Positions 22,623 to 57,460 of a stretch of 64,000 nucleotides of DNA are shown one piece after another. Every line of letters begins with the position of its first letter. Within the stretch, counting starts at the first letter, position 1. The position numbers were made by a program, and so were the translations under genes. This stretch comes from Spironucleus salmonicida (Eukaryota). The DNA is taken from the NCBI RefSeq assembly GCF_000497125.1, contig NC_090599.1, positions 1,240,001 through 1,304,000 on the forward strand, given 5' to 3'. The notes under the pieces are model-generated. The model saw only the letters and a program-made list of their open reading frames with translations. It was not told where the DNA came from and ran no database searches.

Positions 22623-22689
22623 TGATAGTGGAGCGGAAAATGAGGAAGGAAATCTTATATATTATTATATAATAACCATTTTTACCAGA

Positions 22690-31083: not shown

Positions 31084-32415
<1,332 letters not shown>

Positions 32416-37837: not shown

Positions 37838-39148
37838 ATGAACTTAACTTATTCAGTACTTTGCCATAGTTGTGGTACTGCTATCGATCCTAATCCTGCC
37901 ACACTATGCATGAATTGTTTGAAAAATTAAACTAACCTAGCTGAGCCAGTCGATGCGGAGTAAATTATTCATTTTTGCAGGTAATGTGAACGCTTTTGCA
38001 CTGAGCAGGGAAAATATGTACCAGCTGCTTTAGAATCTACTTAACTTTTAGGTATTTGTTTGAAAAAAATAAGAGGTCTAAAAGGGCTTAAAATTAAAGA
38101 TGCTGCTTTCTTATGGACTGAGCCACATTCAAAGCGTATTAAAGTTAGACTCACCCTCCAAAGAGAAATATATAATATTTTAATTGAATAGGATCATGTT
38201 TGCACTTTTACTCAACATGTCACAATGTGTGACGAATGCTAGTATACATATACTGATCATACGTGGACATATTAAGTTCAACTTAGATAGAAAACATAAC
38301 ATAAGAGAACATTCTTATATCTTGAACATGAAATTGTGAAAAATAAGGATAAATTGCATTTTACTGATGTTATTAAATAACCTGAAGGAATTGACTTCTG
38401 CTTTAAGTAAAAATCTAGCTGTAATAAATTTATAGACTTTGTCCATACCAGAGCACCTGGAATTCATCATTAAAGTGACAAAATGGTGTCTGCTGATATA
38501 AAGTCCAATACTGCATACATTAAACATTCTGTAATTTTCAACCTAGCTATTATTTCAAAAGATGATTTAGTTATTGTCCCAAAGAAGTTACGTCCTTTAA
38601 TTGGACATATTGGACCTGTATGTATAGTTTATAAAGTTAACTAACGTATTCACTTGGTTGACCCTTTAACAGGTAGTACTGGATCTTTAACTGCCGCTTA
38701 ATATTTTTCTGCATAATTTTCATCTGTTTAATCACGTAAAAATCGTATTAAAGCCTATATTTGTGAAACAGAAGAAGGTGGTATGTCTGTCCAGACTGAT
38801 ATAGATTCAGAATTGAGCGAAGTTCACTACTGTAGAAGTCATATTGTCAATGCTAAAGAGGATACATTTTGCTGGGTTTACTAAGCCGATTAAATTGATT
38901 TTAACAGTGAAAGTGAATTAAACAGGGGTTTTGAGGTTAATTAGAAATATTATATCATTAACAGGGCTTAAAACGTTGAGAAAAAGCGTAAATAGCTAAA
39001 AGATGAATGTCATGATGAAGAAATGGGATACTAGGATGATGATTACGAAGCAGTTGCTGAAATGCTCGACGAAGATGATCAAGGAGAACTTTTAGAAGAT
39101 GAAGTGCTGATAGAAGGGAATGGATATTGCCCTGATATTGATGAGTGA
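37838..39148 (+). CDS. NMD3: 60S ribosomal export adaptor NMD3
   Basis: LCHSCG...NPATLCMNC, AFLWTEPHSKRIKV, QLRQKTQHKRTFLYLE, acidic tail. Confidence 0.95.
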
Positions 39149-39157
39149 TGAGTATAA

Positions 39158-39463
39158 TCATTTGGGTACAAAAATTTCAGGGTGCTTATCTATAACATTA
39201 ATAAATTATGATAAAACTTCCTTTTATGGTTAATCTTGACATTCTTTAGCCCATATAATTTCATTCTTCATATCTAAAAGCACCATATACCACATATTTA
39301 TTACTAACTTATCACCTTTCACTGCAAAGTTTAATTCAAATTCTTATTGATCTATATCAATTAAATTTATGTCAGGCTCAATAGCCAATACTTTAACTAA
39401 CATCATTTAAACGTTATCAGATTCGGTTTCAAGTTTTGTTACAGTTTCCACAGCTTTGAACAT
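39158..39463 (-). CDS. Small protein (101 aa), possible RPA3/RPA14-like OB fold
   Basis: Size, beta-strand pattern and C-terminal helix FINVIDKHPEIF resemble RPA14. Confidence 0.45.
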
Positions 39464-40429
39464 TCTGTAAGAAGCGAAAAAATATGTTACTTACTTATAA
39501 ATAATAATATATAATTAAAACCAGTATTGCTTAATTGAAATTCTCAATTTGATTAAAATACATTTTATTTAAACCAAAATTTTAATCAAATGATAATAAA
39601 CAATATACTTATTCATTATGTGATATTTACCTTTTTAATGTTATTGATATAGGTCAATTGTTTGATATTTAATTAAGAGTACGATAATAAATTTCTCAAA
39701 ATTCTCACCCAAAATATTTAAATACAAACAATGTAAGTTACATTACCTAATAGGAGATTATATTAAAAATAAAAATATTAAGATTTATTAGTTCACTTTC
39801 TTTATTCCAAATTAAATTAAATATTTAAATTTAGTATAATATTATATATTGTATTTTGATTACTAAATTTAGTATAAATCACTGCATTAAATTTTATTTA
39901 TTTTATAGTGCGATAAGAATCCTATGATGATGTATATAACTAATGAATGTTAATATTATTTTTATATAACACTAAGTTATATGAAGAAAATCTAACTTTT
40001 GTTTTCGTTTATATTTCATACTGCAGAAATAAGTATTTAATTCAAGAAGTAGTGATATTAATAAAATTATCATGTTTAAAACAATAACACGTGATACTAT
40101 ATTTATAAATTATTGTATTGAGCTATATTAAGAGAAATATTTTATAGTAAATTTTATTATAAATATTATAAATTATTACTAATAAATTAATGAATATTAT
40201 AATTTAAATTATTTCATTAACTTAATTTTTAAATAGGATATTATAATTATAAGTTTTACTCAATTGTTAAATAATAAATACTATATTGTATGTTAAAATA
40301 ATATAGGGAGAAAAACATCATATTTATTAAGTATATTGTAATGAAGTAAAAATAAGTAACTTATTTTACAAAAACTAAAAAAATAGTTCCTAGTATAAAC
40401 ATATAAATAGCTATGGATTATTTTATTAA

Positions 40430-41293
40430 ATGAATGATGCTGGAACATGCACAAGATTCAATGCAAACTGTAAAAAAAATCATTTCTGCCCAGCAGTTGA
40501 TTCTGATACTGCATCAGTTCCATGTTTACCATGTACTGACAATATGATTCTTGGATAGGGGTGTTATTGTGTAGATTTCACAGCAATAACTAATTGTAAG
40601 GGTTGTAATGAAGCTGTATGCACGGAATGTTTATCTGGAACTTATTTAAGTAGAAATAGATGTGAAAACTGTTAGAAAGGTTGTAGCAAATGCACTAATG
40701 CTAACACATGTACAGAATGTATGAAAGGATATGATTTAGACACTACCACCGGAGTGTGTAGTTTAATATGCAATAATAACAAACAGTGTTAGGATGCTAA
40801 GTTAGGTTATTGCAATGTAATTGATAGGAAATGTGTACCATGTGATTTAAAATGCGAAATATGTGGTTCTATAGAATTGTGTTATAAGTGCAATATTGTC
40901 GATTAAATTACGACTATAAGTGGTACTTGTACTCCCTATTGTAACTCTTTAAAACATGGTTAATATTGTGACAACGGTGTTGCTAAGCCGTGTACAAATA
41001 ATATCACTTCACAATGTTTTTGTAGTGCTTCTGCAAACTGTGCTACTTGTTCAGATGACAAATCTTAGTGTGCATCATGTTTACAAAATAGTATATTAAG
41101 TAGCCCTGGAAAATGTGATCAATGTGTGAAGGGATTTGAAAAAATTGGTAACATGTGCTGGCGAAGTGCTGCTTAATCTCAAAATAAAATTGGAGGAGGA
41201 GCAATCGCAGGTATAATCATAGCCATTATAATACTAATTGGAGCTGTAGGTGGTGGTCTTGCTTATTATTTTACAAAAAGAGCTAAGAGTTGA
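40430..41293 (+). CDS. Cysteine-rich membrane protein with short basic tail (CRMP1-type)
   Basis: CXXC repeats; C-terminus [33 protein letters not shown]. Confidence 0.92.
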
Positions 41294-41838
41294 TATTAAA
41301 TATGTTATATTGATTATTTATGTATAGGCCAAATATTGATAGAATAAAATAATTATATTCACTTATTAATTTTTAATTTTTACATAATTTTAGTATTGAA
41401 GGTATGCAGCATCCATCATAATATATTTGTAGTTATCGCAATAATGTTTATTGTTATTCCTTATTAGAATAATGTAAATATGTATTAAATAGTTTATACA
41501 ATTTTAATTTTAATATTATATCCGACTTACATAAAAAAATAGTGAAATAAACTGAAATTTATTTCTTTATCATACGTTAATTAATAGATATTTTTAGTGA
41601 ACTTTAGAAGAATAATTATATTTCCTAATATAATTATTGTATTCTTATTACATCTACAGATAGTTTAAATTGGTTTCGATAAATTCGATATTTAATATAA
41701 TTATGATCGCAATTAAATTATGAAAATATATTTTCTATATACTAGTTGTATTTACTTCTGTAATGTTATTAAAACAATTTTTAATTATTCGTACATATTA
41801 ATAGTATTTATTAATTTAATACAAATAAAAATAATAAA

Positions 41839-42336
41839 ATGCCTTCGAAAAATTTAGAGTTTAGTGCCAGAGAACATAGAGAGGCTTTTTCTACGGCATT
41901 CAATGTATAGTCTAAATTTATCGAAAATTAATTTAAGCTTAACTCAATTCCTATTTTATCATTTGATTAAAGTCAATTTCTTCCTCCGTAAATTAATATT
42001 AAGTCATAATATGTATCAAGCCCAATAAATAAAAGAAACATTTTAAATAATATCTAGAAGCTTTACTAAAGAGATGACTACGACCGGCTGTTCTACTCTG
42101 TGGGCGCGGCGCCGTTTTAGCTGAAGGGGAGGGTAGACAGCCTATACCGCAGGATTCAGGAGGAGCGCGCGCAGTCACCGCTCTAGGTCCACCACAGAGC
42201 CGCAGAGCCGCCAGCCAAGAAGCTGAAGCGCTTCGTGTCTGTGCCAGGATCGCTGCATGCGTCGCCGCGCGCTATGTCCTCTATGTCGGTGCGCTCCTAC
42301 GAGCCGCGGAGCTGCCAGCAAAGTCAGGTCCAGTGA
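41839..42336 (+). CDS. Hypothetical protein (165 aa), paralog A; C-terminal half inside the inverted repeat
   Basis: MPSKNLEFSAREHREAFSTAF...; ends CAGTGA; colinear paralog at 52995-53492. Confidence 0.75.
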
Positions 42337-42345
42337 GTTCTATCT

Positions 42346-43221
42346 TCACTCGTTCTTCCCAGGCTCCAGGTCGAACATTCCCACCAGCTTCAGGTACGCA
42401 TTAACCCCGATGAGGGCTTGAAGCAAACCGCTCGCATAGTTCAGCCAGCCGACCTTGACCACTCCCTGCTTCGAGGCCAGAGCGCGGGCAACCTGCTTGT
42501 TGCTGACCGAGAGCGGCGGCAGCATGCTAAGCTGCACCTTTTTGTTCGCGGCCTACATCTGGGGCTGCGCCATAAAGCGGGTCCCGCGCACCCCAACCGG
42601 GACCGCGACGCACACGCGCAAGTCCTTCCGCTCCATCAGTACCGCAGTGCCGAAGGTCTGAATCGCGGCCTTCGAAGCCGCGTAGAGCGAGAAGAAACGG
42701 GGCGGGAACGAGGCGCACAGCGAGGACGTAATGGTATAGTTTGTGAGGGAGGGCAGCTGCAGGAAGTAGTGCGACAGCAGGATGTGGGAGGTCAGGTTTT
42801 GGGCCAGGAACTCGGCGACCTGCGCACCCGAAAAGTCTGAAAAGCGGCGGTAATGGCCGCACCCGTGCAGAGAGTGGTAGTGCTGGATCTCGCTGGCCCG
42901 CAGGTCATGCTGCCGTAAAAAGGCCTCGAAGTGGCCCTAGAAGGTCGCGGTGTCGCTATAGTCGATCTGCATGGCGTAGACATCCGCGTTGGATTCAACC
43001 CATTCCGGTAGGACCGAGGTGCTCCTCGTCAGGAGAATGATCTTGAAGCTATTCTGTAGGATTTTGATTAGCTCGAGCCCGATACCGCCGGTACCGCCAG
43101 AAATAACCGCCAGGGGCTTGGCACCAGGGGCTGACCTGTAGCTGACAGTGTTGTAAGCCGACAGCGCGAAGGTGGTGAACGCGAGGAGCGCGAGAGCGAG
43201 GAGGGCCGCCTTGTACTGCAT
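42346..43221 (-). CDS. Membrane-anchored short-chain dehydrogenase/reductase, copy A
   Basis: N-terminal hydrophobic helix, ISGGTGGIG Rossmann motif, catalytic YAASK. Confidence 0.88.
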
Positions 43222-43661
43222 TTGCACTTAGCAGCGGATTATAACATATTATCGTATATGCTGCCTCGCCGAATGGACTGCTCGGCGGCCAGGTCTCTAT
43301 GCCAAGGCCGCGTGCACACTGCCTAGCCTCGATATGGCCTATGGGTGGCATCGGCGGTATTCGCCGCATTGCATGCTAGCAGGAAGTCAGCATATAGCCC
43401 AGCTGAAGTCTTTCGCCGCGGAAGTCAGTTTGATGGCAAATCGCGGGATGGGGAGCTAGAAGTTGGCTGCACGCGGCCGAACTAACGTTCCATCGCGGTT
43501 TCAGCGCGTCTACCTCAGGCTTCCAGCGCCCTGGCCACGTTGGCAGGTTGCCGGGTGAGCGCTGCTTAACGCTGGGGCGCCAGTAGCTAACGGTGCGGGG
43601 ATACTTGAAGCCCTGAGCCACCTAAGTGGTGAATTCCCGCATCGCACTAATTGGACATTGC

Positions 43662-44201
43662 TCAGGCGGATAGGCGAATAAATACGACACTCCCAGGCAG
43701 CAGGAATTTCAGCTCGTACAATGCTAACGCCTCTGGAATCCGCCAGGCGCACGGGCGATATGAGCGTTTTGCTTGTGCCAAAATATCCTCTGGGATGTAT
43801 GGTGGATGCATCGTATTTCCGAGCCAGCCAGCTGCATAAACTCGCTGCTCTTAAAGGGGCAGCAATGGCACATAGATTGGTATGTGAACTGAAACCGGCA
43901 ATGTGTATTTCGCATGGCCGTTTAGCTTGAACTTTCGAATGTAATCACTAATGCTTATTTTGCTACTGGTTCTGACCAGCATCGAAGAGATGGATTTATG
44001 AAGTTATGTGATTGGTCGTTTAATGACAAATACATATAGTCTTTCTATTTCGATTTTTATTTCCTCCAAATCAACAGGGAATATAAAAAAATCTCTTTTT
44101 ATATTGAATTCTGTCGAAAGATACTATACAATTTTGGATGCGAGGTCTCTGACATTTATTACTAAAATATTAGATAAGCTGAAACGAATAGTATATTTCA
44201 T
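43662..44201 (-). CDS. Possible hypothetical protein (179 aa), copy A
   Basis: Mirror of 51130-51669; open frame only. Confidence 0.3.
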
Positions 44202-45740
44202 ATAGTAAAAGACTAGAGGTTAAGTGTTTTAGAAGCATTAAAATACAATTAGTTATTATTTTCATTTTTAGCTTCAGTTTAATCATATAATTTAATAGTA
44301 TTTATTCATAATAAGTCTAAATAAAAGTATTGCACTGTTCAAATTATAGTGGTATTTCATTTAAACTAATTTTTAGACAGGTATATTATAATATAGTTAC
44401 GGAGGTGACAATGCAAAAAGTATAATTTAGACTGGAATCTATCATGTTATCACAAACATTCATGAAAAATTCCTTCATGTATATATTCTAAGCTATAATT
44501 GATCCTTGCTATTATAATCTGTTTAAGATATCTAATACTACATTAAATTATTCTTATAAGAATGAAAACAAACGTTAGTACTTTTCCGGGACAGATTTTC
44601 TTCTGATAAATTTTTAATTAAATAGTAAGTTTATAGCTGGAATTGAATTTATGCTTTAATATCAGAGCATCTGTAACCAGATATAGAAGATTAATAAAAT
44701 ATAAATTTAATTTAACATTAATAATCAATTTTTCCAAAGACAGAAATTAAAGAACAGAGCATTTTACTCTGAATAAGTAAATTATAATTATAAATTTTAA
44801 TGAATATCTGCCCTTCTATTGTGTAATGATATCTGCTATCATTCAATAAGAATTCATAGATAAGGCAATAGTACTCGTTTCATATTAAACAAATTAGTAA
44901 TACGATCTAGTATTCTTAATAAATGTATTGTTCTAGTTCATTAAAACCATGTTATACTGCATTAGTACCTACTACATACGATAAATACCATTTTAATTAA
45001 AGATCATGACAATACTATTATATTATAGATTAAAAGTACTTCGATATCTTTTAGTAAATATTCCACTACTATTTTCGTGGCAAATCTAACACTTGAGGAG
45101 CTTAGATAATAATATTATCATAATAATAAATATAGTATACCTTATCCGACGATTTTTACTTGGGAGTATAATCATCTGGCGCTGAATATTCTTCATATGA
45201 CTATGGAATAATAACTTGTGTTATATTTAAACAAGTTTCATCAATATGAAAAATGATTGAATACTATCTATGTCAAATCAGATACATAATTGGGTATTAA
45301 TAATCCTATTAGATAGATGTGGAATGATATTATGACTGTGAATCTCCTGTATCTAGTTAATTTTCATATAGTGTAATAGCATTATAACCTGCCTTATGAC
45401 TAATTTTGTTTTGCTTTACCATACAATTAATTCAAATATCTTCAGGTTTATTTTAACAATCTTTCCAGTTACAGTAATGTAGCAATACGTGCAAGATGTC
45501 ATTTTGTATAGGTAACGTCTTTTATTCTAGCTAATATTTGTTGCTGTATAGTTAATATATGACCAATTGTAGCATCTATATTGTACAAACCTGGTATTCC
45601 CCTGAAGAAGCTTGGATAGTATTATTTAATTTCATTCAAAAGCCGCATAATGTCCAAATCTAAAATAAATCAAAATTAACATTAGCTTATGATCTTTAAA
45701 AGCTAGATAATAATTAAATTACATCTTTGTATTATATATT

Positions 45741-46352
45741 TCACTGAAGCTCTGGCATTTCAATACATACAAATCCGTTTTATGCTTCTCCTTCACCATC
45801 ATAGGAAAAATGAAAAGCATCCTCTTGGATTTCTGAAACTCCAAACAATACTACACTTTAAAGGCATTTAACAATGTTTAAAACACGGTCTGATGTTCCA
45901 TAAAGCAGACCTGTTTACATTTTCATTGCAAATGCTTTGCAGATTGCAAGGGCAACCTCGTGCTTCTTGACTTGCAAATGGAATTTTTTCTAGTTATTTA
46001 ATGTTTCCATGGCAAGCTTTTAAAGAATCTTAGGAAAATCATATAACTTGATATACTTTTGCTTTGGCTAAGATGGAAAAAGATCGATATTTGGTTTAAG
46101 AAATACTTATTTAAGATTAGAAATGCGAACATATATTTATGACTTCTTTTCGTTTTGGTTAGGAATATTTTATTGTTTGAGAAGAATGGTAAAAAATGCT
46201 TCAAGATAGAAGATATCTGATAAAAGATGGTTAGAAGATATTTTCTCTTAATTAAACGAGAGTTTCTATATTGCGTATATTTATTCAGGTTTAAAGTTAG
46301 GTAAGAAAATATTTAGTTTTGAAGCGTGTTCCTATTTTTGAGCAGGTTCCAT
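45741..46352 (-). CDS. Hypothetical protein (203 aa), copy A
   Basis: MEPAQKQEHASK...; pyrimidine-rich upstream motif and CAGTGA stop. Confidence 0.65.
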
Positions 46353-46445
46353 TATTAAAGGTAAATGAAGAAGGGAAAATAATAACTTAACATAAAAATA
46401 ATACTATGGGATATATAGTGACTAATTAATTTTAGATTTTACAAA

Positions 46446-46796
46446 ATGAGGTAATTCATTTAGTTAGAATTACCTTTGGAATAAAAAATTTAACAAAGAT
46501 AACATGATACAACAAATATAAAGTAGGTCTAGACCTTGAGGATGCGAAGAAAATATCATCTTTCTACTGTTATGATCGAAGATGATTTTATTGAGCTAGA
46601 ATAGGAACTAGGGTCTAAGAGCAGGTAGAGGATGAGAAATAATGTAACAACTTTGTTAAAATTGAACTATTAATAAATAAAAACTATAAGTAGTATATTT
46701 TTAAACGAAAAACTATTCATGTTTTTGAAATATATTATATTTAATATTTCACTACGAACGATAAGATAATACTTAAACTAAGAGTAAAGTCATTGA
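46446..46796 (+). pseudogene. Truncated or chimeric copy of the 48283-48885 gene (first 65 codons shared)
   Basis: Identical up to the repeat boundary at 46640, then runs into unrelated AT-rich sequence. Confidence 0.5.
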
Positions 46797-46896
46797 ATAC
46801 ATGAATAATATCAAACTATAGATAATCCTTAACTTGAATTATATTATTGCCATCACAAAAAATGATATTCTATAAACTAAAAAACAAATTATGAAA

Positions 46897-47850
46897 TCAA
46901 TCATCATCTTCATCTAAATCTTCGTCGTCCAAATCCTCAAATATTCCCTACAGACTCATATATCGTTCACCTGTATCTGGAAGAATTGTTATGACATCGC
47001 AGTCATATTTTGAAGCATATTGAATTGCTGCATAAACGTTAGCACCACTGGACACTCCTGCTAATATACCTTCTTTTCTGGCCAATAACTTTGTTGTATT
47101 TAAAGCTTGATCATCATTAATTTACATTATTTCATCAACAATATCTGGATTATATACTTATGGTATAAATCCAGTTCCAATACCTTAGATTACATGAGGC
47201 TATGGTTTACATGCTTTTTATGTCTCTAAAATTATTGCTTTTTCTGGTTCTAAAGCAATCGATTTCAATTCTGGAAATGCTGCTTTTAAAGGAATAGACG
47301 CTCCAGAAATTGTACCTCCTGTACCACAACCGACTACAAAAAATTTTGGATTAATATTATACTCTTTACACTAATTAACTAGTTCTACACCTGTTGTGCA
47401 TTCATGAGCTTTAACATTAGCCTGATTATCAAATTATCCAAGACTAATATAATTTTTATTTTCATCCATTAGTTCTTTACATTTAGCTATAGCCCCTCTA
47501 GTTCCAAGTGTGCTCTCTGTTAAAATAAGGTTCGCTCCATAGCCTTATATCAATAAACGTCTCTCAATTGACATATTTGAAGGCATAACAATAGTTAAAG
47601 GTATTTGATAAGCTGCGCACACTAATGCTAGAGCAACACCAGTATTCCCTGATGTAGGTTCAATCAGTCTGGTTTTAGGTGTTATCCTATTCTATGATAT
47701 CAGATCTTTAAGCATAGCAATTGCCACTCTATCCTTAATTGAGCCCCCAGGTGAAATAGCTTCATATTTACAAAATACCCTGCCTCCTTTAGGCAGCTAT
47801 TATAGACGAATAAGTGGAGTTTTTCCAAGTTCTTCTGTTATTAGCGTCAT
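46897..47850 (-). CDS. cysK: Cysteine synthase (O-acetylserine sulfhydrylase, CysK-type)
   Basis: [17 protein letters not shown] (PLP Lys), [52 protein letters not shown]. Confidence 0.95.
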
Positions 47851-48024
47851 TTATATGGAAAAATATATAGAATTTTGCAATATAATATATAGATATAATT
47901 ACTCATGATTACTCACAATTTCTACTTCTATAATAATGTCTCAAATATGGTTATTTGTATAATATATGAAATTAATCATAAATATATTTTATTATATAAT
48001 ATTCCATAATTTCTATGCGGTAAA

Positions 48025-48276
48025 ATGGAGTATGTAACGTCAGAAACAAAGAATGGATATTTCACTGAGAATGAATTAGTGGAACTTAGAAAAACTAAAG
48101 TTTAATAAAAAATATCTGATATTGATTATTTAGCCTAACATAGTGAAATAGAAGCAATCATTAATGATCTCTATAAAAAATTATTAGATACAAAACCAGA
48201 CTCAAAAGAAGTTTATAAATTTGTTGCAAAGTATTTCATAGAATTAAATGAAGAACGCAGTAGAGCTATGGATTGA
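48025..48276 (+). CDS. Small RIIa/dimerisation-docking domain protein (RIIAD1-like, 83 aa)
   Basis: DYLAQHSEIEAIINDLYKKLLDTKPD...FVAKYF. Confidence 0.65.
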
Positions 48277-48282
48277 GTATAT

Positions 48283-48885
48283 TCAATAATCATTAATTAC
48301 ACTATTATTTAATTTATGAATTATTTATTATTTGGAGTCTGATATTTTGGAAAATATCAAATCTTAATTTAATTAATATTATTTCGATACTACAATTGGA
48401 AAATCATAAGAACATTCTAAATTATTTCTAGCTTTTGTTCTGAAACTTAGATATTTTTTCGACAAATAACCATTTGATAGTTCATTTATTATATTTGGTA
48501 TAATCATTTACAATTAATTGCTTTTTAATATAGGCTGTGATTCTTACTAACATTACAATAGCTAATTTCCTTCGTATTATGATTTATTATTATATTTTGT
48601 AGGTAGAACTTTTTCAAATTGTATAGATGCTTTAACATTAGTATCAATTACCTAAGACGTCATCCGTTATTTTATTGTAGTAAAATTAAGATTTCTCATC
48701 CTCTACCTGCTCTTAGACCCTAGTTCCTATTCTAGCTCAATAAAATCATCTTCGATCATAACAGTAGAAAGATGATATTTTCTTCGCATCCTCAAGGTCT
48801 AGACCTACTTTATATTTGTTGTATCATGTTATCTTTGTTAAATTTTTTATTCCAAAGGTAATTCTAACTAAATGAATTACCTCAT
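48283..48885 (-). CDS. Hypothetical protein (200 aa) spanning the inner repeat boundary
   Basis: Open frame MRQFIQLELPLEQK... continuing for 135 codons into the spacer. Confidence 0.55.
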
Positions 48886-48978
48886 TTTGTAAAATCTAAA
48901 ATTAATTAGTCACTATATATCCCATAGTATTATTTTTATGTTAAGTTATTATTTTCCCTTCTTCATTTACCTTTAATA

Positions 48979-49590
48979 ATGGAACCTGCTCAAAAATAGG
49001 AACACGCTTCAAAACTAAATATTTTCTTACCTAACTTTAAACCTGAATAAATATACGCAATATAGAAACTCTCGTTTAATTAAGAGAAAATATCTTCTAA
49101 CCATCTTTTATCAGATATCTTCTATCTTGAAGCATTTTTTACCATTCTTCTCAAACAATAAAATATTCCTAACCAAAACGAAAAGAAGTCATAAATATAT
49201 GTTCGCATTTCTAATCTTAAATAAGTATTTCTTAAACCAAATATCGATCTTTTTCCATCTTAGCCAAAGCAAAAGTATATCAAGTTATATGATTTTCCTA
49301 AGATTCTTTAAAAGCTTGCCATGGAAACATTAAATAACTAGAAAAAATTCCATTTGCAAGTCAAGAAGCACGAGGTTGCCCTTGCAATCTGCAAAGCATT
49401 TGCAATGAAAATGTAAACAGGTCTGCTTTATGGAACATCAGACCGTGTTTTAAACATTGTTAAATGCCTTTAAAGTGTAGTATTGTTTGGAGTTTCAGAA
49501 ATCCAAGAGGATGCTTTTCATTTTTCCTATGATGGTGAAGGAGAAGCATAAAACGGATTTGTATGTATTGAAATGCCAGAGCTTCAGTGA
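48979..49590 (+). CDS. Hypothetical protein (203 aa), copy B
   Basis: Mirror of 45741-46352; ends CAGTGA. Confidence 0.65.
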
Positions 49591-51129
49591 AATATATAAT
49601 ACAAAGATGTAATTTAATTATTATCTAGCTTTTAAAGATCATAAGCTAATGTTAATTTTGATTTATTTTAGATTTGGACATTATGCGGCTTTTGAATGAA
49701 ATTAAATAATACTATCCAAGCTTCTTCAGGGGAATACCAGGTTTGTACAATATAGATGCTACAATTGGTCATATATTAACTATACAGCAACAAATATTAG
49801 CTAGAATAAAAGACGTTACCTATACAAAATGACATCTTGCACGTATTGCTACATTACTGTAACTGGAAAGATTGTTAAAATAAACCTGAAGATATTTGAA
49901 TTAATTGTATGGTAAAGCAAAACAAAATTAGTCATAAGGCAGGTTATAATGCTATTACACTATATGAAAATTAACTAGATACAGGAGATTCACAGTCATA
50001 ATATCATTCCACATCTATCTAATAGGATTATTAATACCCAATTATGTATCTGATTTGACATAGATAGTATTCAATCATTTTTCATATTGATGAAACTTGT
50101 TTAAATATAACACAAGTTATTATTCCATAGTCATATGAAGAATATTCAGCGCCAGATGATTATACTCCCAAGTAAAAATCGTCGGATAAGGTATACTATA
50201 TTTATTATTATGATAATATTATTATCTAAGCTCCTCAAGTGTTAGATTTGCCACGAAAATAGTAGTGGAATATTTACTAAAAGATATCGAAGTACTTTTA
50301 ATCTATAATATAATAGTATTGTCATGATCTTTAATTAAAATGGTATTTATCGTATGTAGTAGGTACTAATGCAGTATAACATGGTTTTAATGAACTAGAA
50401 CAATACATTTATTAAGAATACTAGATCGTATTACTAATTTGTTTAATATGAAACGAGTACTATTGCCTTATCTATGAATTCTTATTGAATGATAGCAGAT
50501 ATCATTACACAATAGAAGGGCAGATATTCATTAAAATTTATAATTATAATTTACTTATTCAGAGTAAAATGCTCTGTTCTTTAATTTCTGTCTTTGGAAA
50601 AATTGATTATTAATGTTAAATTAAATTTATATTTTATTAATCTTCTATATCTGGTTACAGATGCTCTGATATTAAAGCATAAATTCAATTCCAGCTATAA
50701 ACTTACTATTTAATTAAAAATTTATCAGAAGAAAATCTGTCCCGGAAAAGTACTAACGTTTGTTTTCATTCTTATAAGAATAATTTAATGTAGTATTAGA
50801 TATCTTAAACAGATTATAATAGCAAGGATCAATTATAGCTTAGAATATATACATGAAGGAATTTTTCATGAATGTTTGTGATAACATGATAGATTCCAGT
50901 CTAAATTATACTTTTTGCATTGTCACCTCCGTAACTATATTATAATATACCTGTCTAAAAATTAGTTTAAATGAAATACCACTATAATTTGAACAGTGCA
51001 ATACTTTTATTTAGACTTATTATGAATAAATACTATTAAATTATATGATTAAACTGAAGCTAAAAATGAAAATAATAACTAATTGTATTTTAATGCTTCT
51101 AAAACACTTAACCTCTAGTCTTTTACTAT

Positions 51130-51669
51130 ATGAAATATACTATTCGTTTCAGCTTATCTAATATTTTAGTAATAAATGTCAGAGACCTCGCATCCAAAAT
51201 TGTATAGTATCTTTCGACAGAATTCAATATAAAAAGAGATTTTTTTATATTCCCTGTTGATTTGGAGGAAATAAAAATCGAAATAGAAAGACTATATGTA
51301 TTTGTCATTAAACGACCAATCACATAACTTCATAAATCCATCTCTTCGATGCTGGTCAGAACCAGTAGCAAAATAAGCATTAGTGATTACATTCGAAAGT
51401 TCAAGCTAAACGGCCATGCGAAATACACATTGCCGGTTTCAGTTCACATACCAATCTATGTGCCATTGCTGCCCCTTTAAGAGCAGCGAGTTTATGCAGC
51501 TGGCTGGCTCGGAAATACGATGCATCCACCATACATCCCAGAGGATATTTTGGCACAAGCAAAACGCTCATATCGCCCGTGCGCCTGGCGGATTCCAGAG
51601 GCGTTAGCATTGTACGAGCTGAAATTCCTGCTGCCTGGGAGTGTCGTATTTATTCGCCTATCCGCCTGA
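51130..51669 (+). CDS. Possible hypothetical protein (179 aa), copy B
   Basis: MKYTIRFSLSN...VFIRLSA*; open frame only, no recognisable motif. Confidence 0.3.
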
Positions 51670-52109
51670 GCAATGTCCAATTAGTGCGATGCGGGAATTC
51701 ACCACTTAGGTGGCTCAGGGCTTCAAGTATCCCCGCACCGTTAGCTACTGGCGCCCCAGCGTTAAGCAGCGCTCACCCGGCAACCTGCCAACGTGGCCAG
51801 GGCGCTGGAAGCCTGAGGTAGACGCGCTGAAACCGCGATGGAACGTTAGTTCGGCCGCGTGCAGCCAACTTCTAGCTCCCCATCCCGCGATTTGCCATCA
51901 AACTGACTTCCGCGGCGAAAGACTTCAGCTGGGCTATATGCTGACTTCCTGCTAGCATGCAATGCGGCGAATACCGCCGATGCCACCCATAGGCCATATC
52001 GAGGCTAGGCAGTGTGCACGCGGCCTTGGCATAGAGACCTGGCCGCCGAGCAGTCCATTCGGCGAGGCAGCATATACGATAATATGTTATAATCCGCTGC
52101 TAAGTGCAA

Positions 52110-52985
52110 ATGCAGTACAAGGCGGCCCTCCTCGCTCTCGCGCTCCTCGCGTTCACCACCTTCGCGCTGTCGGCTTACAACACTGTCAGCTACAGGTCAG
52201 CCCCTGGTGCCAAGCCCCTGGCGGTTATTTCTGGCGGTACCGGCGGTATCGGGCTCGAGCTAATCAAAATCCTACAGAATAGCTTCAAGATCATTCTCCT
52301 GACGAGGAGCACCTCGGTCCTACCGGAATGGGTTGAATCCAACGCGGATGTCTACGCCATGCAGATCGACTATAGCGACACCGCAGCCTTCTAGGGCCAC
52401 TTCGAGGCCTTTTTACGGCAGCATGACCTGCGGGCCAGCGAGATCCAGCACTACCACTCTCTGCACGGGTGCGGCCATTACCGCCGCTTTTCAGACTTTT
52501 CGGGTGCGCAGGTCGCCGAGTTCCTGGCCCAAAACCTGACCTCCCACATCCTGCTGTCGCACTACTTCCTGCAGCTGCCCTCCCTCACAAACTATACCAT
52601 TACGTCCTCGCTGTGCGCCTCGTTCCCGCCCCGTTTCTTCTCGCTCTACGCGGCTTCGAAGGCCGCGATTCAGACCTTCGGCACTGCGGTACTGATGGAG
52701 CGGAAGGACTTGCGCGTGTGCGTCGCGGTCCCGGTTGGGGTGCGCGGGACCCGCTTTATGGCGCAGCCCCAGATGTAGGCCGCGAACAAAAAGGTGCAGC
52801 TTAGCATGCTGCCGCCGCTCTCGGTCAGCAACAAGCAGGTTGCCCGCGCTCTGGCCTCGAAGCAGGGCGTGGTCAAGGTCGGCTGGCTGAACCATGCGAG
52901 CGGTTTGCTTCAAGCCCTCATCGGGGTTAATGCGTACCTGAAGCTGGTGGGAATGTTCGACCTGGAGCCTGGGAAGAACGAGTGA
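52110..52985 (+). CDS. Membrane-anchored short-chain dehydrogenase/reductase, copy B
   Basis: Same as copy A; differs at two residues (TAAF vs TATF, LNH vs LNY). Confidence 0.88.
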
Positions 52986-52994
52986 AGATAGAAC

Positions 52995-53492
52995 TCACTG
53001 GACCTGACTTTGCTGGCAGCTCCGCGGCTCGTAGGAGCGCACCGACATAGAGGACATAGCGCGCGGCGACGCATGCAGCGATCCTGGCACAGACACGAAG
53101 CGCTTCAGCTTCTTGGCTGGCGGCTCTGCGGCTCTGTGGTGGACCTAGAGCGGTGACTGCGCGCGCTCCTCCTGAATCCTGCGGTATAGGCTGTCTACCC
53201 TCCCCTTCAGCTAAAACGGCGCCGCGCCCACAGAGTAGAACAGCCTGTCGTAGTCATCTCTTTGTTTAGTTTTACAAATATTTATTAGTATATTTTTCTT
53301 ATTAACAGGAGCAGATATAAACTCTGATTTAAATAAAATGCTAGAAGGAAGAAATTTACTTTCTTCAAATGCTGATATTGGAATAGAATTTAGCTTAAAT
53401 TAATTAGTTATAAATTTAGATTGTATATTAAATGCTGTTGAGAATGCGTTTCGATTCTCTCTCGAACTAAATTCAATAGTTTGAGATGGCAT
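52995..53492 (-). CDS. Hypothetical protein (165 aa), paralog B
   Basis: MPSQTIEFSSRENRNAFSTAF...; N-half diverged from and C-half identical to 41839-42336. Confidence 0.75.
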
Positions 53493-53956
53493 TTTATAAA
53501 TCTTTAGTTAAATTATTTACTCTAATAGTAAAATACTAGAAAACAAAATAAAAAATTAATGTATATAAATTACACTATTACGTTTAATACTTATTTAAAC
53601 TTTACAGGTTCATAAGTTTCATTGTGGATATCGAATAAACTTATCACAGTTTACTTTTATATTTACTTAATTTGATGATATTTTTAACTTTATTCGTATC
53701 ATAGAATAAAAATAGTTTCAGCTAACCTTTTTTTACTTTAGAAAGCATTGTAAATAAAATTTTATATTTTAATCTTACTTATATTTCATTTAAGCCTCTA
53801 GTTTAGATATTTATTAAAATAAATTGATAGGTGACAATCTTAGATAACATGACAATTTACATTGAGCATATAATTATGTGTTCTAGATATAAACGTGATA
53901 TAATCTATGATGGTAACAGTATTTATTCATCATAATATATAAACAACAATGTAATT

Positions 53957-56734
53957 TCACTCTTATGCTGGTTCATCCTTAATAATATCTTCTGCAACAT
54001 TCTCTTGTAATTATGTATGCTACTCCTCTGCACTCTTTATATTAGCAACTACTGGTGTCTATTCAACTTCCTGTTTTACATCCTCCTCTTTAACATTATC
54101 TACCACGACATGTTCAATATCTCCAGGCTTTTAGACTTCAGTATTTTTTACGCTCTCCCTCATCTTCTTATACTTCTCAGAATCTTATTGAATCTAGCAG
54201 AAATCTAACGTCATACCAATCTGGCTCCTATAAACGACACCTGCTGCATCTTTTAATACCTGACTTGCATAGCTCATCACTGGATAAGGTTTTCTCGTTA
54301 TTTTCTGAAGTTGAATTTCGCGTGTATTAGCATCATGTTTAGACTATGTATCAGCTTCGGCATACTCAATAGTTTATGCTTCATTGATTTGCTTGAATAC
54401 AGTCTAGTTTGTTTGTAATACCTAAGTGCGCTTTTACTGTATCTGATAAAGTCTAAGGGCTCTAGCTCTCAGTTCCCACTCACTACTAGTGTAACCTGGA
54501 ACAATATTACTTTCATAAAAATGGACTGGGGTTTAGATATCAACGTCTATCATATTAATATAGTCAATCTCCTTATTTTATTGGATTTAATTTGAAATAA
54601 TTAATCGTTCATCTGAGTTAAGAAGCGTCTCACTGGTAACGTTATATACTTTTCTTTTATAAATCGAGTACTTTTTATATGTATCTGACATTCCTATTTC
54701 AGCAAAAACTTGCAAAAATTCTTGACTTAAGAGTTAATCAATTGAATAGGGAGTTGAGAACACGTTCAGTTCGGAACTCCCAGTGAAATCACTTTCAGCC
54801 AGCCGTTTAATAATATACCTGGATGTCAAGTCAGCATATAAAGGGCGTCTTAAATATCCACAATTATCAATCTAAAGTTTTCTACCACCAATATTTTTGA
54901 AGACTAAAGATTCTACACCGTTACTAGGAGGCTCATCATTAACAATTTGTGCTCTGAAACATGGAAGAATATCAATAAATTAGGTCTAAAATCTTTAGAT
55001 AGTTGATTCTCTTAATTCTCTAAATTATTAAGATGCGGCCAGCCTCGCTAAGCGAGGAATATCACAGAGAAATAGCATTGGAAGATAATCTGGACTTGAA
55101 AGAGAAACTGCAAATATTGACGCAAAAAACAACATTGGTGTATTGGAAAATATTTACTTCGACTATGCAGATGAGAATGAAATCAGTTCAGGGCCTCTTG
55201 GACCAGAAATAGTTGTCATGTTAGATGAAATTTAGCTTGCAGAAGGTCTTTCTCTTGCTTGCTTATTATCAGGTAACTCTAGCTTAGGATTATTAATAAT
55301 GATCATCTAAGCAATAAACTTAAGATCTTGTGCAGTAAACAGAGAATTTGAAAATGATATGAAACCTGGCCGCGAGGATTATGGGCCAAAAGCTAGTACA
55401 GGGTCAATACCACCGAACAAACAATCTGTTGCAAAAATGTCCTCGGCATCTAATGCAGAGAAATGAGATAGATCCTTAACTTGAGATAAATCTTTCGTCT
55501 CTGTCAAAACTTAGAGTGCAAGTCGCTGGAATCTTGAATTTTCAACCCTTTCACCACCTCTACCGAACTCTTACACAAACCAGGCCCTAGCCTCAACAAG
55601 TTCATCAGATGTATATAATGGAGCGGCTGCCGAAGCATCTGGCAATACAGTAAACTAATTATCATCTATGAACGGTGATACACGTGCGTGCCAAGTTCTG
55701 AGACGAACAAGTTACTCAGAAATTCTTTGTAAAGTTGTATACAAAGCTGAAACTGCAGCAAACCTTGGATAAATTTATGCTTTTGGAACTGATTCCTTCT
55801 CTTTAAGTAAATTCTACAAAGATTGCACTGCATCTCTAAATTCCTATGAAACTTTTTTAAATTCATTGGATATTTTATTAATATCTTAAAATAATAATCC
55901 TAACTATTAAATTAAAATTGCTCTATTGATTTGATATAAAATTGTTTCTCTAGATCTTGAGCTTCGAGTCTCATCAGTGCTTGAACCTGTATCAATTGAA
56001 TAAAATGTAACTGGCATAATGGATGAGACGTAAACTGCTAACTGTTAATTTAGTTACACTTCGACTGATTTAAATAAAATTACAATGCTTTATTCTAATC
56101 CTTAGAGAGCTTAAATTGGAGGCTCTCCAATCAATGTAACACCTGCGGTTACATCTGCCAACTCCATTAACTAACGTTATCCTGATGATAACGACTGATC
56201 TGGTTTATCAGCTGATGTTTCTTTAACAAGCATGTCTCTGAAAACTAAAACATCTGAACGAGGTAATATAGAGTTTAAAGAAATTTTAAGACCATATGCA
56301 AGTTAAGTATTATTTGCTTCTAAAGCAAAAGGCCTGCAAGATTCTGTGAGTAATTATTCTAAGGCAGAGTAAACAGTATCTTAGTTAAAAATGTTATAAA
56401 TAGACTTAAAACAGTTTTAAGATAAAATCTAAGGCCTTTGTAAACATTCTTAAGTCAGATCTTAAAATGAAACAAATTCTGACATACTTGCGCCAGCAAG
56501 CCGTATAGAATGTGCAGTAATATTGTTATCAGAAATAGATAAAATTGAAACAGCAATCTCTAATAGTTAAGCCTGATCGGCCTGTGTAATTTCTGCAGAG
56601 CGTGATAAATCCTAGAAATATGATAGAATCACATACCTAGAAACAATTTCAGACAGAAAAGACTCTACCTGAGCGTCGGACTCCTGGAAGTAGCGCTAAA
56701 TTGATGACTAGAGTTGTTGTCTAGACTTTTCCAT
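53957..56734 (-). CDS. CFAP206: Cilia- and flagella-associated protein 206-like (925 aa)
   Basis: SLNSILPRSD...RQLMELADVTAGVTL, QTPVHFYES, SEWELRARAL match CFAP206 signatures. Confidence 0.7.
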
Positions 56735-56805
56735 TAAATTGCGGAACGTTTTGAGTTTATATATTATTATATATAAATTTCTTATACATTAAAAAAATCT
56801 CAAAA

Positions 56806-57384
56806 ATGACCGCAACTACTCAAGTAAATGCGATTTCACTAAAAGGTTCTACAAAAACCGTTACTGAATATTTTGCATTTGCGATTAACTAAATTCTCTA
56901 TCTACGTTAGGTGTATCCTTCTAATTGCTTTACCACAAGGCCTGCATATGATTTGCAGCTCCCGGTCGCTTAAGATGAAAAGTTAAACGCTTACCTAACG
57001 CAGGTCCTTAATATTACCGCACAGTGGCTTATGACTGGATAGGTTAAGAAGATAGTTTTGGCTATTTTAGCAGGTGAGAAGGCGATTGAGTGCTGGGAGT
57101 TCAACGTTGACTCGGATACAGCTACAAATTCAGACGCAAAGCGTGAAATTCAGGCGGTGATGAGGCAGATCACTGCATCTGTATCATTTTTACCAGTTAT
57201 TAGCGAAAAGGTTATATTTGATATTCAAGTGCATGCAGATGAAAATGCTCTACCACCTCAGGGATGGGAAACCACTAAAGAAGCTTTGATTTAAGGTTAG
57301 AGTGTCGATTTTAGAAAGTTCTAGACCGGAGTACACTCTGTAGGCACTAGGGTTGTCTACGAGGAAAGAGGTGGCGACATTTGA
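56806..57384 (+). CDS. MAD2: Spindle checkpoint HORMA protein MAD2
   Basis: ISLKGSTKTVTEYFAFAINQILYLR, ECWEF, IQAVMRQITASVSFLP. Confidence 0.93.
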
Positions 57385-57460
57385 AAAATTTCTTTTTTTA
57401 GTATATATTAAGATTTTATATGATTTTAGTAATGTTGATTAGAGATGTCCCACTCCATTA

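What the first reader, a model, noticed from the sequence alone, without database searches (positions are those of the whole stretch)
42068..53263. 4.57-kb near-perfect inverted repeat enclosing a 2.05-kb cysteine synthase cassette
Seen: arms 42068-46640 and 48691-53263 have no indels and duplicate the SDR and other ORFs. The spacer holds cysK and a RIIa-domain gene. No transposase or recombinase is visible. Inference: arm-to-arm recombination would flip the spacer, and such repeats can seed palindromic amplification of a gene relevant to the cysteine redox buffer of diplomonads.
Basis: partly seen in the sequence, partly recalled or inferred. Interest (0 to 1): 0.7.

Follow-up and report, generated by a model that had tools for sequence, protein, structure and literature searches.

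The report
Gene-conversion palindrome around cysteine synthase gene
A salmon parasite's chromosome carries two mirror-image 4.6-kb gene blocks around its cysteine-making gene; the blocks are real and most likely kept alike by copying between them, but nothing shows that they switch or multiply that gene.

Summary
The arms 42068-46640 and 48691-53263 are 4573 nt long, with 5 mismatches, no indels and a 2050-nt spacer. An SDR protein encoded here is 100% identical to a Spironucleus salmonicida entry. The genes read under code 6 (TAA/TAG = Q).

Short-read contigs of two DNA runs give the arm about 1.85x the depth of the flanks and the spacer about 1.0x. The spacer contig carries 30 nt of arm at both ends. 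The structure is therefore real and cysK is not amplified.

The duplication is old. Just outside the arms, the N-terminal halves of a paralogous 165-aa ORF are 68% identical, with saturated silent sites (pS 0.71, dN/dS about 0.1). GC jumps from 20% to 62% within 3-12 nt of the identity edge. A second inverted pair in the window shows the same coupling.

Best reading: an old palindrome homogenised by GC-favouring arm-to-arm conversion, with a recent AT-rich 2.7-kb inward extension and cysK as a passenger. No recombinase was found (0 of 67 ORFs). Spacer flipping could not be tested.

The scan noted the same phenomenon before on other DNA of this genome and in Giardia. Interest is modest.

The parts
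42068..46640 (.). Left arm of the palindrome (4573 nt)
   Evidence: 5 mismatches and no indels against the right arm; one collapsed short-read contig, 42086-46640, at about 1.85x flank depth in runs X1 and X2.
48691..53263 (.). Right arm of the palindrome (4573 nt, reverse complement of the left arm; position p maps to 95331-p)
   Evidence: the right-flank contig starts at 53216 and joins this arm to the right flank with 0 differing letters.
46641..48690 (.). Unique spacer (2050 nt) holding cysK, the RIIa-like gene and the 3' part of gene X
   Evidence: contig 46611-48720 carries 30 nt of arm at both ends. Its depth is 171.6 (X1) and 11.2 (X2), the same as the flanks; no residual similarity between the two ends of the spacer.
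41827..42067 (+). Diverged outer homology, left side: N-terminal half of ORF1-L, AT-rich, about 68% identical to its right partner
   Evidence: over 76 codons pS is 0.71, pN 0.21 and dN/dS about 0.11.
53264..53504 (-). Diverged outer homology, right side: N-terminal half of ORF1-R
41839..42336 (+). ORF1-L, a 165-aa orphan protein. The arm edge and the GC step fall at about codon 77.
   Evidence: only 2 proteins in the database match, and they are the two window copies (84% identical). GC3 is 0.25 in the N-terminal part and 0.77 in the C-terminal part.
52995..53492 (-). ORF1-R, the paralogue of ORF1-L
   Evidence: N-terminal GC3 0.12.
42346..43221 (-). SDR-L, a short-chain dehydrogenase/reductase of 291 aa with an N-terminal hydrophobic stretch
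   Evidence: adh_short, E 9.7e-11; 100% identical to a UniRef S. salmonicida SDR; the other hits are 25-33% identical. GC3 0.81.
52110..52985 (+). SDR-R, the second copy. It shows 2 amino-acid differences from SDR-L in the translations (T/A and Y/H).
42071..43920 (.). GC-rich core of the left arm (56-62% GC). Its mirror lies at about 51411-53250.
   Evidence: GC change points at 42071, 43921 and 53251. GC profile.
43662..44201 (-). ORF3-L, a 179-aa orphan that spans the inner edge of the GC-rich core (mirror 51130-51669 +)
   Evidence: this exact protein is in the public set; no family.
45741..46352 (-). ORF203-L, a 203-aa orphan in the AT-rich inner arm (mirror 48979-49590 +)
   Evidence: this exact protein is in the public set. 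The 272-aa and 254-aa start variants are not.
48283..48885 (-). Gene X, a 200-aa orphan. Its first 65 codons lie in the right arm and the rest in the spacer.
   Evidence: in the public protein set; contigs 48540-48825 (X5) and 48603-48848 (X6) bridge the arm edge at 48691.
46446..46796 (+). Truncated copy of gene X in the left arm. The first 65 codons are identical; then the reading runs 51 codons into unrelated spacer.
   Evidence: translations; the 116-aa product is not in the public set.
46897..47850 (-). cysK-type cysteine synthase, 317 aa, AT-rich codons (GC3 0.18)
   Evidence: PALP, 229 bits. TIGR01139, 333 bits (cut-off 350.95); codon GC.
48025..48276 (+). 83-aa RIIa-like protein (below threshold), transcribed divergently from cysK
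   Evidence: RIIa E 0.018, 15.1 bits. Atlas leads; in the public set.

Best explanation
This is an old inverted duplication in the Spironucleus salmonicida nuclear genome. Its two copies are kept almost identical by recurrent intrachromosomal (arm-to-arm) homologous repair, that is, gene conversion.

Where the copies have been converting for a long time, the outer roughly 1.85 kb that holds the 3' half of ORF1 and the SDR gene, repair favouring G/C has driven the sequence from about 20% to about 60% GC. That rise stops exactly where homology stops.

The inner 2.7 kb of each arm is AT-rich and free of mismatches. It is most likely a recent addition made by one long repair-synthesis event. That event would have started inside the SDR gene, copied one side's unique DNA inward, and ended at a non-homologous junction that left a truncated copy of gene X.

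cysK and the small RIIa-like gene are single-copy passengers in the loop. A crossover between the arms would flip the loop but would leave every gene and its immediate neighbours unchanged, so the structure is a by-product of repair and not a switch.

Shown: the structure, the 2:1 copy number, the ancient divergence at the outer edge, the coincidence of the GC and identity edges, and the absence of a recombinase. Inferred: conversion as the homogenising process, its GC bias, the recent inward extension and its direction, and the passenger status of cysK.
For: (1) The structure is real. Searches give its anatomy. In one search the collapsed arm contig has depth 307.8 (X1) and 19.7 (X2), against flanks at 163.3/170.5 and 9.13/11.7 and the spacer at 171.6 and 11.2. 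The spacer contig ends in 30 nt of arm on both sides. Each flank contig runs into the arm with 0 differing letters, so the difference at 42085 is tied to its own flank.

(2) The duplication is old. The 76 codons of ORF1 outside the arms have pS 0.71 (dS about 2.3), pN 0.21 and dN/dS about 0.11. The adjoining 4573 nt differ at 5 sites.

(3) GC is coupled to identity. The GC change points lie at 42071 and 53251, against identity edges at 42068 and 53263. Within ORF1, GC3 is 0.25/0.12 before the edge and 0.77 after it, and the SDR has GC3 0.81. In-frame TAG/TAA = Q codons occur inside the GC-rich part, so that part is native DNA.

(4) There is a partial replicate in the same window. Inverted paralogous genes 16656-18254 and 28579-30264 are 55-76% identical and 22-37% GC per 100-nt window outside the tract. 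They share a 373-nt perfect tract (17798-18170 / 28750-29122) that reaches 64% GC. One edge of that tract lies 1-2 nt from a GC change point.

(5) More than one event occurred. All 5 mismatches lie in the outermost 879 nt, which has P = 2.6e-4 if they were spread evenly.

(6) Published context. In this genome, duplicated regions (at least 2 kb, at least 95% identical) average 44.7% GC against 30.7% elsewhere (PMC9509377, passages). Sharp G+C shifts were noted in 2007 and ascribed to regional mutational bias (PMC1805757, passages).
Against: The inner 2.7 kb of the arms is as AT-rich as the flanks (25-26% GC; ORF203 GC3 0.26). 'Arms are GC-rich because they convert' therefore holds for only 41% of the arm and needs the added assumption of a recent extension.

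In the replicate pair, the second edge of the tract lies about 109 nt from the GC change point.

No outgroup sequence exists: ORF1 has no homologue outside the window and the SDR has none above 33% identity. The direction of substitutions (AT to GC) was therefore not measured.

Four of the five mismatches lie 370-878 nt from unique sequence. They could be allelic or polishing assignments, which would weaken the two-event argument.

A test of the wider prediction gave nothing. The GC-rich 3' third of the RPB2 gene (18963-22679) has no near-identical shorter protein in the database; the best is 63% identical. Unannotated fragments would not be seen by that search.

The DNA runs are from a sample that may be the source of the assembly, so they are not fully independent.
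Confidence: 0.65

Rival explanations
1. One recent event explains everything. A single long inverted duplication or conversion of 4.57 kb overwrote part of an older paralogue. There is no continuing exchange, and the GC-rich patch was already there for another reason, namely the regional mutational bias proposed in 2007.
For: There are no mismatches in the inner 3694 nt. The inner arm is AT-rich. The inner junction shows no residual homology and leaves a truncated gene copy. Andersson et al. attribute the G+C shifts to regional mutational bias (PMC1805757, passages).
Against: The event would have to end by chance within 3-12 nt of a pre-existing 40-point GC step inside an ORF. A comparable coincidence recurs at one edge of an independent pair. 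The mismatches are clustered in the outer 879 nt (P = 2.6e-4), which suggests tracts of different ages.
Confidence: 0.2
2. This is a functional device. The arms serve to invert or amplify the cysK cassette, for instance as palindromic or extrachromosomal amplification under oxidative stress.
For: Inverted repeats do mediate adaptive amplification in another parasite: Leishmania forms linear amplicons at inverted repeats (PMC4028189 and PMC4256157, search listing and abstract starts only). Cysteine synthase mRNA rises with oxygen in this species (log2 fold change 2.0 and 1.3; PMC6397501, passages).
Against: The spacer depth equals the flank depth in 2 of 2 DNA runs and no joints were reported. 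None of 67 ORFs matches a recombinase or transposase. Because of the mirror symmetry, inversion alters no local promoter or gene context. From general knowledge (recalled, not tested): when an inverted repeat seeds a large palindrome, the loop stays single per molecule. Only an unstressed culture sample was available.
Confidence: 0.05
3. Assembly artefact: a fold-back chimera or a mis-joined repeat.
For: Long-read assemblies can create false palindromes. The DNA runs that were laid may come from the same sample as the assembly.
Against: A 2050-nt unique spacer lies between the arms. The two flanks differ from each other, and each is joined to an arm in short-read contigs. Arm depth is about 1.85x. 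The two diverged ORF1 N-termini are both intact. The assembly paper reports PacBio reads with an N50 of 14.6 kb at 161x coverage, and normal coverage at the two largest duplicated regions that its authors checked by hand (PMC9509377, passages).
Confidence: 0.02

Closest known systems
Primate X- and Y-chromosome palindromes maintained by GC-biased arm-to-arm gene conversion (PMC8981503, abstract and passages; PMC8600007, search listing only)
   Same: Gene-bearing inverted arms more than 99% identical around a unique spacer. The duplication is far older than the arm identity suggests. Arm GC exceeds flank GC. Arm/spacer boundaries shift over time: in five primate palindromes, part of the spacer in one species is arm in another.
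   Different: The scale is 4.6 kb, not tens of kb to Mb. The GC contrast is about 40 points (20% to 62%), against about 5 points (46.3% vs 41.2%). Only the outer 41% of the arm is enriched. The organism is not known to undergo meiosis, so the exchange would be mitotic (the lack of known meiosis is recalled, not tested). No outgroup was available to polarise substitutions.
'Duplicated regions' of the S. salmonicida chromosome-scale assembly (PMC9509377, passages)
   Same: This repeat meets that paper's criterion (self-match of at least 2000 bp at 95% identity or more) and shares the reported tendency to higher GC (44.7% vs 30.7%).
   Different: The paper gives a genome-wide statistic. It uses 'gene conversion' once, for surface-antigen regions, and has 0 occurrences of 'inverted' or 'palindrom'. 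It gives no locus-level anatomy, no GC-bias mechanism and no mention of cysteine synthase (0 occurrences).
Flip-flop inverted repeats (plastid IR, yeast 2-micron circle, herpesvirus segments); recalled, not tested here
   Same: Large identical inverted repeats flank a unique segment that homologous or site-specific recombination can invert, giving isomers with the same gene content.
   Different: No dedicated recombinase is present here (0 of 67 ORFs). The locus is chromosomal. The existence of two isomers has not been shown.
Inverted-repeat-mediated linear amplicons in Leishmania (PMC4028189 and PMC4256157; search listing and abstract starts)
   Same: A protozoan parasite with inverted repeats flanking or adjoining stress-relevant genes.
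   Different: No extra copies and no novel joints were seen at this locus. The repeats here are a tight palindrome, not dispersed repeats bracketing a large region.

Membership tests
Palindrome homogenised by arm-to-arm gene conversion | Two inverted arms more than 99% identical around a unique spacer | tested here: met
   4568 of 4573 positions are identical, with no indels and a 2050-nt spacer. Copy number is 2:1.
Palindrome homogenised by arm-to-arm gene conversion | The duplication is much older than the arm identity implies | tested here: met
   The paralogous ORF1 N-termini adjoining the arms have pS 0.71 and dN/dS about 0.11 over 76 codons. No orthologous locus from a relative was available.
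Palindrome homogenised by arm-to-arm gene conversion | Arm GC is raised above flank GC | tested here: inconclusive
   The outer roughly 1.85 kb is 56-62% GC against flanks at 20-21%, with change points 3 and 12 nt from the identity edges. The inner 2.7 kb is 25-26% GC.
Palindrome homogenised by arm-to-arm gene conversion | Derived substitutions in the arms are skewed from AT to GC (polarised with an outgroup) | not testable with these tools
   No homologue of ORF1 outside the window, and none of the SDR above 33% identity. No genome is held for this window.
Site-specific invertible segment (Hin/Gin or FLP type) | A recombinase gene in or beside the segment | tested here: not met
   None of 67 ORFs of at least 70 aa in 41700-48800 matches a recombinase, integrase or transposase family at E <= 0.001.
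Site-specific invertible segment (Hin/Gin or FLP type) | Orientation changes which gene is joined to a promoter or coding part | tested here: not met
   The arms are identical up to the spacer edges. Either orientation therefore gives the same junction sequences. Gene X stays whole and the truncated copy merely changes sides.
Site-specific invertible segment (Hin/Gin or FLP type) | Both orientations are present in a population | not testable with these tools
   All four runs were held as contigs. Orientation needs reads that span a 4.6-kb arm.
Transposon with terminal inverted repeats (e.g. Maverick/Polinton-like) | A transposase or integrase, and insertion into a contiguous target | tested here: not met
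   No such ORF. The DNA just outside the two arms is inverted-homologous to itself (ORF1 N-termini, 68% identical), not two halves of one target.
Inverted-repeat or palindromic gene amplification | Raised copy number and novel junctions | tested here: not met
   Spacer to flank depth is 1.03 (X1) and 1.08 (X2). The table of joints is empty. Only a standard culture sample was available.
Cysteine synthase A (CysK, O-acetylserine sulfhydrylase) | PLP-dependent fold and the family-level score | tested here: inconclusive
   PALP scores 229 bits against a cut-off of 35. TIGR01139 cysK is the best model at 333 bits, which is 18 bits below its equivalog cut-off of 350.95. The gene is named cysteine synthase in PMC3916229 and PMC6397501 (passages). 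Activity was not assayed.
Short-chain dehydrogenase/reductase | adh_short domain with a Gly-rich cofactor motif and a Y-x-x-x-K motif | tested here: met
   adh_short scores 42 bits against a cut-off of 26.6. GGTGGIG and YAASK can be read in the translation; the motif definitions are recalled.
RIIa dimerisation/docking domain | Pfam PF02197 at its gathering score | tested here: not met
   15.1 bits against 22.4 (E 0.018), although the alignment covers model positions 2-38 of 38. The Atlas gives leads only, with a best score of 0.88.

The most novel reading that the evidence does not exclude
The sharp kilobase-scale GC-rich islands of the S. salmonicida genome have been unexplained since 2007. 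On this reading they are footprints of very strong GC-biased repair between repeated copies in a cell with no known meiosis. This locus would then preserve a time series of that process: an old, GC-saturated converting core and a freshly added AT-rich arm extension. GC content would act as a clock for how long a segment has been part of a repeat, and palindromes would grow inward by break-induced copying. If so, the loop carrying cysK should exist in both orientations in culture.
Probability: 0.4. Interest if true: 0.6.

Novelty: new member of a known kind. Interest (0 to 1): 0.38.

Why it matters
The locus gives a clean within-gene control for the cause of GC-rich islands in an AT-rich protist genome. 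The same ORF is 20% GC where its two copies have diverged and 62% GC from the point where they are identical. That supports repair bias and argues against expression, gene content or foreign origin. It also suggests that duplicated and GC-rich gene parts in this parasite evolve in concert. For cysK the result is negative but useful: the oxygen-induced gene sits in a recombination-prone loop yet is single-copy, so its published induction needs no DNA rearrangement.

Tried and rejected
- Whole genome: none is held for this window, so repeat partners outside the window could not be sought.
- RNA evidence: no RNA holder is listed. Runs X5 and X6 are only guessed to be RNA. I report what their contigs cover and draw nothing from uncovered parts.
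- Structured RNA in the GC-rich stretch 43225-43661. Rfam gave only one chance-level match in 41000-49000 (mir-BART2, E 0.47). No tRNA was found in the window. Fold z-scores were +0.38 and +0.66. Rejected.
- Foreign origin of the GC-rich patch. It contains in-frame TAG/TAA = Q codons, its ORF1 has no relatives anywhere, and the SDR's nearest relatives are 25-33% identical. Rejected as a recent transfer.
- Third copy of the arm: the depth is about 1.85x, not 3x.
- Loose 28-nt end on one X5 contig at 42104: not found in the window with up to 4 substitutions. Left unexplained; it may be a chimeric contig.
- Prediction test on another GC island. The GC-rich C-terminal part of RPB2 was searched among shorter proteins. 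No near-identical copy was found; the best hit is 63% identical. This is uninformative about unannotated fragments.
- Microhomology at the inner junction: none at positions 1-2 and 11 of 39 matches overall.
- Literature. 'biased gene conversion' with 'Spironucleus' gave 0 papers. 'Spironucleus' with 'palindrom' gave 3 papers and with 'inverted repeat' gave 7 papers (6 listed); none is on genomic palindromes by title or abstract start. 'Giardia' with 'GC-biased gene conversion' gave 5 papers, none on palindromes by title. Supplements were not read.


Full report
OBSERVATION

The repeat finder on 38000-58000 returns a single inverted pair, 41827-46640 / 48691-53504 (4814 nt, 98%), separated by 2050 nt. 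The stretch 42068-46640 against the reverse complement of 48691-53263 is 4573 nt long. It has 5 mismatches (42085, 42438, 42463, 42945, 42946) and no indels.

The 241 nt outside the arms (41827-42067 / 53264-53504) hold the other 76 mismatches, so they are about 68% identical. Inward of 46640/48691, similarity drops to background at once: 11 of 39 positions match, and a self-BLAST finds no hit between the two ends of the spacer.

ORGANISM AND CODE

Table 11 gives almost no ORFs here. Table 6 (TAA/TAG = Q) opens ordinary genes. The 291-aa SDR in the arm is 100% identical to a UniRef entry named short-chain dehydrogenase/reductase of Spironucleus salmonicida. The proteins of the locus lie on a contig of 1,696,856 nt.

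IS THE STRUCTURE REAL?

No genome is held for this window, so I laid contigs of public runs on 40000-55500. Two DNA runs, X1 and X2, come from one sample that may be the source of the assembly. Each gives the same four pieces:
- a left-flank contig running to 42115;
- one collapsed arm contig, 42086-46640;
- a spacer contig, 46611-48720;
- a right-flank contig starting at 53216.

Mean word depths for X1 / X2 are: flanks 163.3 and 170.5 / 9.13 and 11.7; arm 307.8 / 19.7; spacer 171.6 / 11.2. The arm is therefore present about 1.85 times per flank and the spacer once.

The spacer contig carries 30 nt of arm at each end. Each flank contig enters the arm with no differing letter, which ties the C/A difference at 42085 to its own flank. 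No joints were reported. The palindrome is real and cysK is not amplified in this sample. These contigs cannot give the orientation of the spacer.

GENE CONTENT

Each arm holds, from the outside inward:
- the 3' half of a 165-aa orphan, ORF1 (41839-42336 + / 53492-52995 -), for which a search of 5.8 billion proteins finds only these two copies, 84% identical to each other;
- an SDR (43221-42346 - / 52110-52985 +; adh_short E 1e-10; all other relatives 25-33% identical);
- a 179-aa orphan, ORF3, and a 203-aa orphan, both present letter for letter in the public protein set;
- the first 65 codons of a 200-aa orphan, 'gene X'.

Gene X continues into the right end of the spacer (48885-48283 -) and is in the public set. 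The left copy reads 51 more codons into unrelated sequence and is not in the public set.

The spacer holds two further genes. One is cysK (47850-46897 -; PALP 229 bits; best NCBIfam model cysK TIGR01139 at 333 bits, 18 bits under its cut-off). The other is an 83-aa gene whose RIIa label is sub-threshold (15.1 bits against 22.4; Atlas leads at 0.88).

Of 67 stop-to-stop ORFs of at least 70 aa between 41700 and 48800, only the SDR and cysK ORFs pass a Pfam threshold, and none matches a transposase or recombinase. There is no tRNA in the window and no credible Rfam match in 41000-49000.

Contigs from two runs guessed to be RNA (X5, X6) cover cysK, SDR plus the ORF1 3' end, ORF3 with the GC-rich stretch next to it, ORF203, the RIIa-like gene, and the right arm/spacer edge inside gene X. 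I treat this as weak support for those gene models only.

THE DUPLICATION IS OLD BUT THE ARMS ARE YOUNG

The 76 ORF1 codons outside the arms differ at 71% of synonymous sites and 21% of non-synonymous sites (dS about 2.3, dN/dS about 0.11). Both copies have therefore been evolving under purifying selection for a very long time. Yet from codon 77 onward they are identical, and they stay so for 4.57 kb. That requires homogenisation after the duplication.

All five mismatches lie in the outermost 879 nt, which has P = 2.6e-4 under even spread. The inner 3694 nt were therefore reset more recently than the outer rim, and at least two events with different end points are implied. One caveat applies: four of the five sites lie too far from unique sequence for short reads to phase, so they could be allelic or polishing assignments.

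GC CONTENT TRACKS IDENTITY

GC content steps from 20% to 62% at 42071, 3 nt from the identity edge at 42068. It steps from 62% to 21% at 53251, 12 nt from the edge at 53263 (profile). Within ORF1, GC3 is 0.25 (left) and 0.12 (right) before the edge and 0.77 after it. The SDR has GC3 0.81, whereas cysK in the spacer has 0.18.

The GC-rich part uses TAG/TAA as glutamine codons in frame and has no close relatives elsewhere. It is native DNA, not a recent import.

The window holds a partial replicate. Genes 16656-18254 (-) and 28579-30264 (+) are inverted paralogues, mostly 55-76% identical and 22-37% GC per 100-nt window. They share a 373-nt perfectly identical tract (17798-18170 / 28750-29122) that reaches 64% GC. 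One edge of the tract lies 1-2 nt from a GC change point and the other about 109 nt from one.

A third pair is the 3' end of an RNA polymerase second-largest-subunit gene (12845-13092) and an inverted fragment at 34989-35236. These are 94.8% identical and 53-55% GC. The two pairs are collinear in mirror order, which suggests the remains of a much older palindrome.

The assembly paper reports the same tendency genome-wide: duplicated regions are 44.7% GC against 30.7% elsewhere (PMC9509377, passages). The 2007 survey described sharp G+C shifts and ascribed them to regional mutational bias (PMC1805757, passages).

WHAT DOES NOT FIT SIMPLY

The GC-rich part ends at about 43921. The inner 2.7 kb of each arm is 25-26% GC, like the flanks, although it is perfectly identical between the arms. 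If conversion raises GC, this part cannot have been converting for long.

It can be read as one recent long repair-synthesis tract. On that reading the tract began in the old homologous core, somewhere inward of 42946. It then copied one side's unique sequence across and ended at a junction without homology (46640|46641), leaving a truncated gene X.

Which side was the template is not settled. The right copy gives the longer ORF, which is in the public set, so right-to-left copying is the simpler reading. Shifting arm/spacer boundaries are documented for primate X palindromes (PMC8981503, passages).

MECHANISM AND FUNCTION

My best reading (0.65) is an old inverted duplication homogenised by recurrent arm-to-arm conversion with a G/C-favouring repair bias. 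It would have a young inward extension and carry cysK and its neighbour as passengers.

A crossover between the arms would invert the loop. Because the arms are identical up to the spacer edges, both isomers have the same junction sequences and the same intact genes, so no switch results.

The published oxygen induction of cysteine synthase (log2 fold change 2.0 and 1.3; PMC6397501, passages) is at the RNA level. The gene itself is an old bacterial acquisition of the diplomonad lineage (PMC6934886, passages), which fits its AT-rich codons.

The rivals are:
- a single recent event landing by chance on a pre-existing GC patch (0.2);
- a functional inversion or amplification device (0.05), for which Leishmania's inverted-repeat amplicons are the model (PMC4028189 and PMC4256157, listing only), but for which depth, joints and ORF content give no support here;
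- an assembly artefact (0.02).

TESTS THAT GAVE NOTHING

The GC-rich stretch 43225-43661 between the SDR and ORF3 shows no excess RNA structure (z +0.38 and +0.66). A 28-nt loose end on one X5 contig at 42104 is not in the window. I also predicted that the GC-rich 3' third of RPB2 would have a near-identical partial copy; the search found none among shorter proteins, the best being 63% identical. That neither supports nor excludes an unannotated fragment.

NOVELTY

Palindromes kept identical by GC-biased conversion are well known in primates. The higher GC of duplicated regions in this genome is published. I found no paper combining 'biased gene conversion' with 'Spironucleus' (0 papers). Among the hits for 'Spironucleus' with 'palindrom' (3 papers) or 'inverted repeat' (7 papers, 6 listed), none is on Spironucleus palindromes by title or abstract start.

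Earlier notes of this scan describe the same phenomenon on other DNA of this genome (e1-7274174, e1-7142305) and in Giardia (e1-617462). What this locus adds is the two-age arm and the within-ORF GC step. I rate it a new member of a known kind, with interest 0.38.

Noticed in passing
window 12730-18305 and 28606-35339: These look like the remains of a much older, larger palindrome: mirrored, collinear similarity around a roughly 10-kb centre. It comprises 12730-14014 against 35339-34257 and 16752-18305 against 30168-28606. The region is mostly 37-65% identical at protein level. Only two patches are still near-identical, and both are GC-rich: 17798-18170 / 28750-29122 (373 nt, 100%) and 12845-13092 / 34989-35236 (94.8%).
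   Followed up: partly
window 9703-13050 (+) and 18963-22679 (-): Two RNA polymerase second-largest-subunit genes lie convergently 6 kb apart, and both have GC-rich 3' ends. One has Rpa2-type weak features and the other is RPB2-type with domains 4 and 5. The first has an inverted 3'-end fragment at 34989-35339. For the second, no near-identical shorter protein was found; the best is 63% identical.
   Followed up: partly
window 43225-43661 (mirror 51670-52106): A GC-rich (56-62%) stretch of about 440 nt lies between the SDR start and the ORF3 stop. No convincing ORF family was found. It is covered by contigs of the two runs guessed to be RNA, has no Rfam match and shows no excess fold stability.
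   Followed up: yes
window 42104 (run X5 contig): One contig of a run guessed to be RNA continues leftward from 42104 with 28 AT-rich letters. These match neither flank nor anything else in the window. It may be a chimeric contig or a junction with DNA outside the window.
   Followed up: partly
window 2217-6776 (-): A 1520-aa ORF carries a long array of repeats of about 47 aa, of the type '...DG.IYEEGSDGE.Y...' (DNA repeat period 141-144 nt). Pfam gives only a weak, repeated I-TevI DNA-binding-domain match.
   Followed up: no
window 40430-41293 (+) and 13635-15914 (+): Two cysteine-rich, CxxC-type membrane proteins with C-terminal transmembrane anchors, of the surface-protein kind described for this parasite. 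The larger one is GC-rich (0.50) and has 342-nt internal repeats.
   Followed up: no
P0026: A 439-aa RPB2 C-terminal fragment, 63% identical to the window's RPB2, sits on a 14.5-kb contig of a public run. It is far closer than all other hits (43-49%), so an unsequenced relative of this parasite may be present in public data.
   Followed up: no
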